DNA from: Trichinella spiralis | Lineage: Eukaryota | DNA: 64,000 bases | Assembly (NCBI RefSeq): GCF_000181795.1 | Contig: NW_003526945.1 | Span: 597,492-661,491, forward strand | Direction of reading: 5' to 3' | Part shown: positions 56,801 to 59,800 of the stretch, piece by piece | Position numbering within the stretch: the stretch's first letter is position 1 | Layout: each line of letters begins with the position of its first letter | Translations under genes and position numbers: made by a program | Notes under the pieces: model-generated | Told to the model about the DNA's origin: nothing | Databases searched by the model: none | The model's input: the letters and a program-made list of their open reading frames with translations, nothing else

Positions 56801-59800
56801 CAGGTAGTTTTAACTTTTCAGAAACTTTTGGTGTGAGGAAAAACAGTTAAAACAAAATATATTTTTCTAATCTTTTGGCTGTGTCTACTTGGTATATTAG
56901 GTTATTGAAATTAATGAACAAATCTTTTTCTCATTTTAATTACATTAGGTAAAAAATGAAAACATTATGTTTGAAACATTTGTACATAAATAGAACTGTA
57001 TAATGGTGAAAAAAAATAATTTTTTAGCTGTTTTAGGTTATTACTTCTGGGCATGCAAAAATTAATAATATTTTATTCACTAAATCATCCTACGTTAATA
57101 ATATTAATATGCTGCTTCCATTTGATAAAGTTCTGTAAAAACGATTTAAATTGAAAATAGTCTTAGTTCGATTCATTTGAAACAAGTCGGAGATTTAAAA
57201 TAATTGGCATAGAATTAGGAGTTTATTTGATTCAATCAACTTGTAAAAGATCAACTGCATTGTTAGCTTTAATATATATGTATTTTTTGATCTGACCATT
57301 GGCAGTCAAAAAATTTATACATATTAAATATGTTAAAGGTTTTGAAAAGTACAGCAAAGTCGACTGTTCATTGAAATAATTTATGAATAAAATGGAATAA
57401 AGTTATTTTTAAAAGAAATGAAAGAAAGAAACTAAGTTACAAGTTGTGTATAATCACGAAATTCTTTGTATGTTTATAGGTATTTCCGTGTTCATGTCCT
57501 TGTGCGTGTTTTTAGTTGTAGTATCTGAATCAATGCCGCATACATCTGATGCAGTTCCACTGATCGGTACAGAATTTCTTTACATGTTGTATTATTTTAT
57601 TTAAATACACAAAACAGCAACAATAACAATGCTATTGGCGTGATGGCTCCTTCCGATACCTGTAACTTATGAAACACAAAAATTATTAATTGACTCTGTG
57701 CTTGACGCATTGAATTAACCTCGCACCAAAAGGTTGAGATAAATCAGAGTATTTGCAAATTGTGAAAATCTTTCTCTCTCTGTGTCTCTCTGTATGTGTG
57801 CTCAACTTCAGTTCTCTGACTCTTCGTCTTTGCAAACGGTTTTCGCCTCTTATTGTACATGGTTGATATTTTTTTATAGGTCTCAATGTTCTCGTTTCAC
57901 TGGTATTCTATCTGCAAATTTTTGCTATGACTATTCCTTCTACAAGCGAAACGGTACCGCTATTAGGTAGGTGCCTGTATTTCTGCTTGCATTTGTTATT
58001 TTTGGTTGGAAAGAAAAAATACAATTTTTATTTTGAGATGCAAGGAGAGGTGATGTAATATGTGGAAGAAGTGATTGATTATTTCTTTTATTCAAATCTT
58101 TATTTACAAGTTGCATTTTTTTATTTTGGCACTGAAGCATGCATATTGGAGTGAAATTATTTTTCCTCTAACTCTAACAATGGCTTGTTGCGGAAAAGTC
58201 AGTGGGATATTTTACATTAAATGAAAAGTTTCATCTTTTCTACTGAACGTGTAAAAGAAAGGACCTTTCGATTCAATAAATTGTTGAAAAATTAATCACA
58301 TTTGTTGGTTTTCTTAAGCTGACTCATTGTTTGGTAATGGCTGATCGATTTGATCACACGTTAGTTGATATTTTTGATTTTCGTCATCACTTCATCTTAT
58401 CAGTTTGATCATTACGTTGAAATTTACATTTAAGCAGATCTTTTTTTAATGTTAAAATTGCATCACCTTGCCGCCTATTGATGATCAATCAATCAATTCA
58501 GTATCACGCGCATGATGACATAGGAAATGTTTTACAGAAGACGGAAACGATTAAACCTTTCAATAATAGTTGCTGAACAAATTAATATTTTTTATTGCAT
58601 CAGATACATAGAAAAAAAGTGTCCAGTTTTCAGTTGGTGTAGAAGATGCAGCCAGTTGCTGTGATAGATCAGTCAATCATGTTTGATTTGATTTTACAAC
58701 AAGGCAAAAGAAAAAACACTGTACTTTTGCAATTTGCATACTTTTCAAACTTGACAATCATTTTTATTGATTGGACCTTTGAACGAGAGAGCGAGTTTAT
58801 TCATTGAATGAAAAATTTTATATTTACATGTGATTTTTTTTTATTTTTACTTTTTTATTTTCAAATTTAAAACACGTATTTTTTACATACGCACATCAGT
58901 ATCACAAATGCAATCATGAAAATGTTTTGTTTTGTTTTGTTTTGCTCTCTTTTTATCTTTGCTTTGCGTAAATTGAACGTGAAATATACAAATAAATGAG
59001 AAATGTTTGTATAGATGTTGATAAAATGATCTCATTTTTGCATGAATAGCATTTCAAAGTAAAACAAGTTTTCTAATAAACTTTAGCTTTAGTTGCAATT
59101 TTAATACCGTTTTTGTCCTAGTCAAGTTGAACAATTGAAATTTCAACAAAACCAATGAAATTAGTGTAATATTTAAATTTTAATTCATTGTAAAATAAAT
59201 GTGTACCGTACAACAGTTGAACAGAATAAACAAGCATGTCGTATCTATGTTTGAGAGCACTTTAAAATTTACTTCTTGTTTTTTTTGCGTTTACAATACA
59301 AGATTTTCAAGAACATTTTATCCTTTACCAGTTGAATAAATTTTTGTTGTCTTGTTTGTGTTGTCAGTTCAAAAATTGAGGCAAATGTCAAGGTTGACAG
59401 GACATTTTCAATCTTAACATAAATGTAACTTTACATAATTATGTTACGTCGTGTTATTTTATTTTATTTTATTTTATTTTATTAAAGGTCATTTTATTTG
59501 CATGTGGACGTTTTTGAAAAAAGAAATATTATTTCGTTTTCTCTGAATTTGCATATTTCGACAACAAGTTTCGAAATAATATATGCATGCATCAATCAGA
59601 GTTACGCAATGTGGATGATTGTCTGCAAAAAAATTTTCACAACAAAGAATGCAATTGCAAAAACATGTTTATTTAATCGATTAGGAATTGCAAAAGTATG
59701 CAATTTCATCCAAAATGTTTATTGGTCAACTTTCGTCGATTGTTTGCGTCACAAAGCTCAGGGGCAAGGCTAGGAGAGGGGAGGCAGGGGGTGGGGGAGG

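What the first reader, a model, noticed from the sequence alone, without database searches (positions are those of the whole stretch)
57480..57966. Duplicated, apparently mutually exclusive M2 (pore) exons in a nematode alpha7-type nAChR
Seen: between the exon ending ...GEKLTL(G) (56511) and the exon starting (G)TYFSC (60538) lie two 87-nt exons exactly 400 bp apart. Both have a T-rich TATAG acceptor and a GT donor, both are phase 1/1 and stop-free, and both encode M2 plus the M2-M3 loop. Their DNA is heavily diverged, yet length, frame and the P.TS..VPL.G motif are kept, which suggests selection on both rather than a decaying copy. Known: insect alpha6 (Drosophila Dalpha6) uses mutually exclusive exon 8 variants at the same structural position. 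I know of no such M2 cassette in nematode ACR-16-group genes. Inference: one gene makes two channel pores, either as an ancient ecdysozoan feature retained here or by convergent duplication. Including both exons would keep the frame but insert an extra TM helix and invert M3-M4 topology, so exclusivity is expected. This may matter for cholinergic anthelmintic pharmacology.
Basis: partly seen in the sequence, partly recalled or inferred. Interest (0 to 1): 0.92.

Follow-up and report, generated by a model that had tools for sequence, protein, structure and literature searches.

The report
Either-or pore exons, Trichinella acetylcholine receptor
An acetylcholine receptor gene (acr-19) of the parasitic worm Trichinella carries two very different copies of the exon that builds its ion pore and splices in one or the other, so it likely makes two kinds of channel, a switch long known in insects that I did not find described for any nematode receptor.

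Summary
Confirmed. Two intact 87-nt exons (57480-57566, 57880-57966) each encode M2 and the M2-M3 loop. In 8 runs laid, joints into A were seen in 7, into B in 6, out of A in 8 and out of B in 8. No A-to-B or skip-both joint was listed, but rare forms would be missed. The gene is Trichinella acr-19, not the oxantel receptor. A is the usual ACR-19 pore. B differs at 6', 9', 13', 16', 17' and 20' and resembles no other M2 seen. A 14-bp intronic helix brackets A and beats 200 of 200 shuffles, so it is a likely switch. Insect alpha6 exon 8 works the same way; I found no sign that B descends from it. GenBank models already hold both forms; seven paper searches found no description. The scan noted such cassettes before in octopus and arthropods. 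Channel function and drug relevance are untested. New variant of a known kind; interest 0.55.

The parts
53802..53880 (+). First coding exon of acr-19 (ATG, signal-peptide region)
   Evidence: Joint 53879>54587 in 2 of 4 runs; model matches GenBank tails
54588..54727 (+). Coding exon 2 (140 nt)
54890..54934 (+). Coding exon 3 (45 nt)
55045..55154 (+). Coding exon 4 (110 nt)
55852..56099 (+). Coding exon 5 (248 nt; Cys-loop)
56317..56511 (+). Constitutive exon 6 (195 nt): loop C with YECC, M1, and the GEK ring before M2; its donor is shared by A and B
56816..56838 (+). Upstream arm of the predicted RNA helix that brackets exon A (core 56825-56838)
   Evidence: Inverted repeat I7; core -22.1 kcal/mol, extended -27.5, 0 of 200 shuffles as strong; 12 of 14 core pairs at 0.94 or more in a fold of 56780-57990. 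Function untested.
57480..57566 (+). Alternative exon A (87 nt): M2 and M2-M3 loop, ordinary ACR-19 type (F8', M9', C12', E20')
   Evidence: joints in 7 of 8 and out 8 of 8 runs
57719..57741 (+). Downstream arm of the predicted helix, in the A-B intron (core 57719-57732)
   Evidence: no difference from the window in the one sister run where all differences of the covering contig could be placed (X7)
57880..57966 (+). Alternative exon B (87 nt): divergent M2 and M2-M3 loop (N6', V9', F13', Q16', I17', M20')
   Evidence: joints in 6 of 8 and out 8 of 8 runs; same peptide in a T. pseudospiralis model; helix in the AlphaFold2 model
60538..60647 (+). Constitutive exon 8 (110 nt): M3; shared acceptor
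60700..61155 (+). Last coding exon (456 nt): intracellular loop, M4, stop

Best explanation
The Trichinella acr-19 gene carries two tandem 87-nt exons for the pore helix M2 and splices one or the other between the same flanking exons, giving two 489-residue subunits that share the ligand-binding domain and are predicted to differ in gating and ion flow. Shown: the exons, both splice paths, the ACR-19 identity and the residue differences. Inferred: the pair arose by tandem duplication of an old phase-1/phase-1 exon inside nematodes, probably before Trichinella and Trichuris split and independently of insect alpha6 exon 8 (about 0.7). Inferred: A is the default, and B is chosen when a 14- to 20-bp intronic helix forms across A and loops it out, so B is used only when A is hidden (about 0.55). 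Inferred: both forms pass cations, since the GEK ring lies in the shared exon; B, with V9', F13', Q16' and no E20', would desensitise and conduct differently (about 0.6 that B conducts at all).
For: Splicing. Exon6>A in 7 of 8 runs, exon6>B in 6 of 8, A>exon8 in 8 of 8, B>exon8 in 8 of 8; A>B and exon6>exon8 in 0 of 8. Raw reads of the one run on record as RNA gave 1, 2, 2 and 1 reads for these four joints. B's share of joint-contig depth is 0.25-0.45 (rough). Identity. KRY27533, named T. spiralis ACR-19 in PMC7891710, is P0005. A tree without the M2 exon groups the gene with Trichuris and C. elegans ACR-19 at UFBoot 100, apart from the arthropod clade that holds Drosophila alpha5 and alpha6. 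A is the orthodox pore: 77 of 82 chromadorean ACR-19 models carry its FMSLCVF core and none shows two M2-M3 loops. B's best match among 93 distinct M2 peptides is 14 of 28 residues, and the one 8c-type peptide held is not among its 13 best non-self matches. Age. B keeps A19' and T21', as most outgroups do (many chromadorean ACR-19s have A at 21'), where Trichinella A and Trichuris A share S19' and S21'. Mechanism. Helix -22.1 kcal/mol against a shuffle mean of -12.6 +/- 2.0, 0 of 200. Decay of frameshifted RNA cannot enforce the choice, since A+B and skip-both stay in frame. The intron is 313 nt, far above the roughly 40-nt steric limit given in PMC4165533. Pore residues. Changing Leu 9' of alpha7 to Val slows desensitisation, and L9'-L16' form the gate (PMC11848294; PMC4548482). 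The same 87-nt AG..GT exon is single in L009 and doubled in L007.
Against: Seven of 8 runs are contigs whose RNA status is a guess and which drop rare variants. Only 6 raw reads cross the four joints, and a joint with under 3 reads and no contig is not listed. No DNA run was laid as a control. GenBank holds A+B models for two species (P0005, P0125, P0129), and a Drosophila alpha6 record also carries two exon-8 copies (P0374). No dN/dS was computed. B's identity in T. pseudospiralis is weak evidence because the whole protein differs at only 3 of 489 residues. No B-type sequence turned up outside Trichinella (4 of 5 Trichuris models are A-type and one skips M2). The helix has no covariation support, was one of three intron pairings tested, and has no strong competitor: the best downstream partner is -14.9 kcal/mol and B's branch-point accessibility does not change. 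The age argument rests on two or three sites. The A-type whipworm subunit gave no current in 14 oocytes (PMC8308736), so no ACR-19 channel has been recorded in the papers I read.
Confidence: 0.75

Rival explanations
1. The cassette is ancient: B descends from a duplicated M2 exon of the nematode or ecdysozoan ancestor, shared with arthropod alpha6 exon 8 and lost in most nematodes.
For: Doubled M2 exons occur in insects (PMC1919356), in spider and tick models (P0026, P0054) and in locus L007. As with beetle exon 8c (PMC2064938), the distal divergent exon loses a conserved glutamate. B has L8' like alpha7, not the ACR-19 F8'. One Panagrellus ACR-19 model has an odd M2 with L8'-V9' like B; V9' occurs in 4 of 147 M2 peptides. 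ACR-19 sits next to the alpha7 group in the tree, with weak support (58).
Against: B is no closer to 8c-type peptides than to generic alpha7 M2. The Panagrellus peptide is only 10 of 28 identical to B and 17-20 of 28 to ordinary chromadorean ACR-19. Three tardigrade isoforms share one M2 (one of them has the same M2 in a shorter model). 77 of 82 chromadorean models are A-type. No acr gene appears in the text of the C. elegans survey of validated exclusive exons. A symmetric 87-nt exon duplicates easily.
Confidence: 0.2
2. B is spliced but builds a non-conducting or silencing subunit that lowers or alters receptors containing A or other subunits, not a second working pore.
For: B changes every pore-side position tested, with bulky F13' and Y14', polar Q16' and no E20'. 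It scores lower on Pfam Neur_chan_memb than A (178 against 195 bits).
Against: B keeps S10', L11', P23', T25', S26', P30' and L31' and a similar hydrophobicity (1.89 against 1.99). It is modelled as the M2 helix at pLDDT about 68-76, with an alignment of relatives that favours this. It makes up about a quarter to a half of joint depth.
Confidence: 0.25
3. The exon choice is set by RNA-binding proteins alone, and the helix is a chance match.
For: C. elegans exclusive exons are controlled by RBFOX, SUP-12, ASD-2 and UNC-75 (PMC4165533). The downstream intron has 3 TGCATG sites and the A-B intron a CU-rich tract (motif labels recalled, enrichment not tested). No competitor helix was found.
Against: 0 of 200 dinucleotide shuffles reach the helix energy. 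The other two intron pairings were ordinary (13 of 60 and 12 of 60 shuffles as strong). The layout matches ATE1 R1-R3 (PMC7797038).
Confidence: 0.35
4. A and B are tandem cassette exons, not strictly exclusive; A+B and skip-both transcripts are made at real levels.
For: A+B gene models exist in GenBank. Both products stay in frame. Eight C. elegans candidates with 3n exons proved to be tandem cassettes (PMC4165533).
Against: No such joint is listed in 8 of 8 runs, although contigs of depth 2-7 were kept in these runs. An extra helix would flip M3-M4 (inference).
Confidence: 0.1

Closest known systems
Insect nAChR alpha6 mutually exclusive exons 8a/8b/8c (PMC1919356, PMC6393475, PMC2064938)
   Same: Alpha7-type subunit; tandem copies of the exon for M2 and the M2-M3 loop, with the same 29-residue span; one copy used at a time; the distal copy is the most divergent and loses a conserved glutamate.
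   Different: The gene belongs to the nematode ACR-19 clade, not the arthropod alpha5-7 clade. It has two copies, not three. B differs from A at 18 of 30 residues, including 9'. B is common (0.25-0.45 of joint depth), whereas 8c is the least used. No doubled exon 3 was seen in the joints or the gene model.
Nematode ACR-19 (ACR-16 group); T. spiralis KRY27533, T. muris WBGene00291941 (PMC7891710, PMC8308736)
   Same: This is that gene; form A has the family's M2, 28-29 of 30 identical to Trichuris.
   Different: Exon B and the splice choice are not mentioned in either paper ('splic' and 'exon' occur 0 times). Other ACR-19 models show one M2 type.
Human ATE1 exons 7a/7b with helix R1-R3 (PMC7797038)
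   Same: An element upstream of the first exon pairs with an element in the intervening intron.
   Different: ATE1 has a second competitor (R4), conservation and mutational proof; here there is one predicted helix, no strong competitor and no test.
Nematode avr-14 A/B glutamate-gated chloride channels (PMC8841521)
   Same: One nematode Cys-loop gene gives subunits with different channel regions.
   Different: There the whole C-terminal region is exchanged, in an anion channel; here a single internal exon is exchanged.

Membership tests
Mutually exclusive homologous exon pair | Homologous exons of equal length and phase with their own splice sites | tested here: met
Mutually exclusive homologous exon pair | Each exon is spliced singly between the same flanking exons | tested here: met
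   All four joints in 6 of 8 runs; three of them in X9 and two in X11
Mutually exclusive homologous exon pair | Double inclusion and double skipping are rare (under 5% in PMC4165533) | tested here: inconclusive
   Not listed in 8 of 8 runs, but contigs drop rare forms and raw depth is 6 reads; A+B models exist in GenBank
Nematode ACR-19 subunit (ACR-16 group alpha subunit) | Cys-loop ligand-binding domain, four membrane helices, YxCC in loop C | tested here: met
   Pfam PF02931 and PF02932; YECC; model
Nematode ACR-19 subunit (ACR-16 group alpha subunit) | Groups with C. elegans ACR-19, apart from ACR-16 and ACR-16-like | tested here: met
   UFBoot 100 on 339 columns of 38 sequences, M2 exon left out; accession named ACR-19 in PMC7891710
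Oxantel-sensitive ACR-16-like receptor of clade I nematodes | Orthology to Tsu-ACR-16-like (KFD48832, CDW52185) | tested here: not met
   Those sequences form a separate clade
Insect alpha6 exon 8 cluster | Duplicated exon covers M2 and the M2-M3 loop with the same boundaries | tested here: met
   Same 29-residue unit in P0374 and P0355 and in L007
Insect alpha6 exon 8 cluster | Gene lies within the arthropod alpha5-7 clade | tested here: not met
   (arthropod clade 94, ACR-19 clade 100; deeper nodes weak)
Insect alpha6 exon 8 cluster | Exon copies correspond to 8a, 8b or 8c | tested here: inconclusive
   No special likeness of B to 8c-type peptides; 29 residues carry little signal and no exon tree was built
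RNA-structure-driven exon choice (ATE1, Dscam type) | Intronic helix across an exon, stronger than chance | tested here: met
RNA-structure-driven exon choice (ATE1, Dscam type) | A competing second pairing | tested here: not met
   Only weak alternatives
RNA-structure-driven exon choice (ATE1, Dscam type) | Conservation or covariation of the arms; effect of mutation | not testable with these tools
   No genome of a distant relative was available; sister runs are too close
Cation-selective nAChR | Agonist-gated cation current from each form | not testable with these tools
   The GEK ring is present in the shared exon; the whipworm A-type subunit was silent in oocytes

The most novel reading that the evidence does not exclude
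ACR-19 is a one-gene heteromer: A and B subunits must co-assemble to make a working channel, which would explain why the cloned A-type whipworm subunit was silent. The ratio is set by an intronic RNA helix, and the cassette is shared across clade I parasites, giving them a receptor type that other nematodes lack.
Probability: 0.12. Interest if true: 0.82.

Novelty: new variant of a known kind. Interest (0 to 1): 0.55.

Why it matters
ACR-19 is one of only two ACR-16-group subunits reported in clade I parasites, and its one oocyte test used the A-type form and failed (PMC8308736). A second, abundant pore version gives a direct new experiment. It also adds a nematode case to repeated duplication of this one exon. 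Because A and B differ at most pore-side positions on an identical frame, the pair is a natural test of what exon-8-type choice does to a channel, a question PMC6393475 calls open for insects. The predicted helix offers a testable splice mechanism. Any link to anthelmintic action is speculative: this is not the oxantel receptor.

Tried and rejected
No genome of the window's organism is held, so paralogues were not searched genome-wide. No holder run was on record as RNA; one raw RNA run of the same species label was laid instead. A search with the B region found only 4 proteins among 10 candidates, all Trichinella or Trichuris ACR-19, none a B form outside Trichinella; lengths under 268 aa were not searched. 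The metagenome scan gave 42 loci; none of the M2 peptides shown for them was of A or B type. Trichuris and Panagrellus DNA could not be reached. dN/dS was not computed: 40 of 93 difference rows were shown, none inside A or B. Rejected as causes of exclusivity: frameshift decay (both wrong products in frame); steric block (313-nt intron, nearest upstream AG 68 nt from B's acceptor); minor-spliceosome mismatch (donors GTGAGC, GTACAG, GTAGGT lack the U12 consensus, which is recalled). Helices A-B intron/downstream intron and upstream/downstream intron were no better than shuffles. The first exon boundaries were off by one and gave no translation; corrected. In one search, 11 of 14 domain comparisons failed because the anchor motif was missing; only 3 were used. 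A search for human CHRNA7 exon sizes found nothing useful. Williamson et al. 2007 on Trichinella Cys-loop genes and the id I tried for the Drosophila alpha6 cloning paper are not held, so they were not seen and the first could mention this. The 12 supplements of PMC13170309 (a capillariid transcriptome) were listed, not read. No complex was predicted. Look-ups of earlier scan notes by place and by sequence returned nothing.

Full report
Observation. The window holds a Cys-loop receptor gene on the + strand, with coding exons from 53802 to 61155. Between exon 6 (ends 56511) and exon 8 (starts 60538) lie exon A (57480-57566) and exon B (57880-57966). Each is 87 nt, AG/GT bounded, phase 1 on both sides and free of stops. 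They share 40 of 87 bases and 12 of 30 residues. Of 301 AG-87-GT sites on both strands, 85 are open, and only these two resemble an M2 exon (scores 78 and 64, next 8).

Are both used? Eight runs were laid: one raw RNA run and seven contig sets whose RNA status is a guess, from seven organism labels and four studies. Exon6>A appears in 7 of 8, exon6>B in 6 of 8, A>exon8 in 8 of 8 and B>exon8 in 8 of 8, all with GT..AG ends. No A>B or exon6>exon8 joint is listed in any run. The raw run gave 1, 2, 2 and 1 reads for the four joints. B's share of joint-contig depth is 0.25-0.45; contig depth is a poor measure of level. Limits: contigs drop rare variants, a raw joint with under 3 reads and no contig is not listed, and no DNA run was laid. 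GenBank already holds A, B and A+B models for T. spiralis and T. pseudospiralis. I cannot tell whether the A+B models rest on reads. The T. spiralis set also fuses the gene to an upstream calponin-repeat stretch that the laid RNA does not support, which points to automated prediction.

Which gene? Exon 5 is 100% identical to T. spiralis proteins, and the spliced forms match GenBank models exactly. One of them, KRY27533, is named ACR-19 in PMC7891710. A tree of 38 sequences on 339 columns without the M2 exon puts the gene with Trichuris and C. elegans ACR-19 (UFBoot 100), apart from the whipworm oxantel-sensitive ACR-16-like subunit and from the arthropod clade that holds Drosophila alpha5 and alpha6; deeper nodes are weak. 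The 497-aa T. muris subunit, whose database model has the A-type exon, gave no acetylcholine current in 14 oocytes (PMC8308736).

What differs? Numbering is anchored on alpha7 L247 = 9' and M260 = 22' (PMC4548482) and the alignments. A has S6', F8', M9', C12', V13', V16', V17', E20'. Its FMSLCVF core is in 77 of 82 chromadorean ACR-19 models; four of the other five are fragments. B has N6', L8', V9', V12', F13', Q16', I17', M20'. Its best match among 93 distinct M2 peptides is 14 of 28. The GEK ring lies in the shared exon, so both forms are likely cation-type. In alpha7, L9' to L16' form the gate and valine at 9' slows desensitisation (PMC11848294). Beetle exon 8c also replaces a conserved glutamate tied to conductance (PMC2064938). 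That 6', 13', 17' and 20' face the pore is recalled, not from a call. AlphaFold2 models B as the M2 helix at pLDDT about 68-76, helped by an alignment of relatives. No function is shown.

Selection and age. B is identical in a T. pseudospiralis model, but the whole protein differs at only 3 of 489 residues. In four sister runs none of the 40 of 93 difference rows shown falls in A or B, while the introns carry many. No dN/dS was possible. B keeps A19' and T21', as most outgroups do, where Trichinella and Trichuris A share S19' and S21'. This suggests the copy is older than their split, but it rests on few sites, and no B was found in Trichuris models. The exon is an old unit: the same 87-nt exon is single in locus L009 and doubled in L007, and doubled in spider, tick, beetle and fly models. 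B shows no special likeness to 8c-type peptides. I favour independent duplication (about 0.7). One Panagrellus model with L8'-V9' is a lead for a second nematode case or an older origin.

How is one exon chosen? Both wrong products stay in frame (518 and 460 aa), so decay cannot police them, and the 313-nt intron is too long for a steric block (PMC4165533). A 14-bp helix joins 56825-56838 to 57719-57732 and brackets exon A: -22.1 kcal/mol, extended to -27.5, against -12.6 +/- 2.0 for shuffles, 0 of 200 as strong. It was one of three intron pairings tested; the other two were ordinary. It resembles ATE1 R1-R3 (PMC7797038), but no strong competitor was found. The simplest model: A is the default, and B is used only when the helix hides A. 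This is inference (about 0.55); control by proteins alone remains possible.

What is known. Insect alpha6 uses exclusive exons 8a/8b/8c at this place (PMC1919356, PMC6393475), and whether they give different receptors is called unresolved in PMC6393475. 'acr' does not occur in the text of the C. elegans survey of 29 validated clusters. Seven searches found no paper on this cassette. What I saw: passages of PMC7891710, PMC8841521, PMC2064938, PMC4548482, PMC11848294, PMC6393475, PMC13170309 and PMC13578988; passages and section 2.2 of PMC8308736; part 1 of 6 and passages of PMC1919356; part 1 of 4 and passages of PMC4165533; abstract and one section of PMC7797038. Williamson et al. 2007 was not held and may bear on novelty; unread supplements of PMC13170309 may too. 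Earlier notes of this scan report similar cassettes in octopus and arthropod genes; I did not check those loci.

Verdict. The feature is real, expressed, and very likely mutually exclusive (about 0.9 for that step). It works like the insect alpha6 exon 8 cassette but sits in a different gene lineage, with a far more divergent and well-used second exon and a candidate RNA switch.

Noticed in passing
P0315 (Panagrellus redivivus ACR-19 model): Its M2 has L8'-V9' in place of the near-invariant F8'-M9'-C12' and the model lacks most of M1; it may be a second, alternative M2 exon in a chromadorean nematode.
   Followed up: partly
L007:4537-4623 and 5771-5857: An alpha7-type gene in a metagenome contig has two intact 87-nt M2 exons.
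   Followed up: partly
window 51204-51233, 53377-53880, 54360-54530: RNA contigs show an upstream exon ending at 51233 joined to two acceptors near 53378 and 53578, and another first exon ending at 54530: alternative 5' ends. GenBank models KAL1235174-6 instead fuse the gene to the calponin-repeat stretch near 48600-49100, probably in error.
   Followed up: partly
window 56219-56229: A donor at 56230 is spliced to exon 6 in one run and suggested by a loose end in another; an AG 11 nt upstream would make a frameshifting micro-exon, or this is a splicing intermediate.
   Followed up: no
window 56512-60537: Contigs of the introns around A and B are deeper (27-53 in X1) than those of upstream introns (3-7), a hint of slow splicing at the cassette; contig depth is a weak measure.
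   Followed up: no
window 57570-57603 and 58094-58127: A 34-nt imperfect repeat follows both A and B, with a third copy at 58814; a relic of the duplication, a shared element, or chance in AT-rich DNA.
   Followed up: no
window 45297-46739 and 48873-49124: Two calponin-repeat stretches, with 7 and 1 Pfam matches.
   Followed up: partly
window 35580-38653: Nuclear-receptor-like gene: C4 zinc finger and a long Q/S/H-rich last reading frame.
   Followed up: partly
window 25011-25433 (-), 9669-9944 (-), 969-1439 (-): Pfam matches to a caspase domain, a papain-family protease and the vinculin family.
   Followed up: partly
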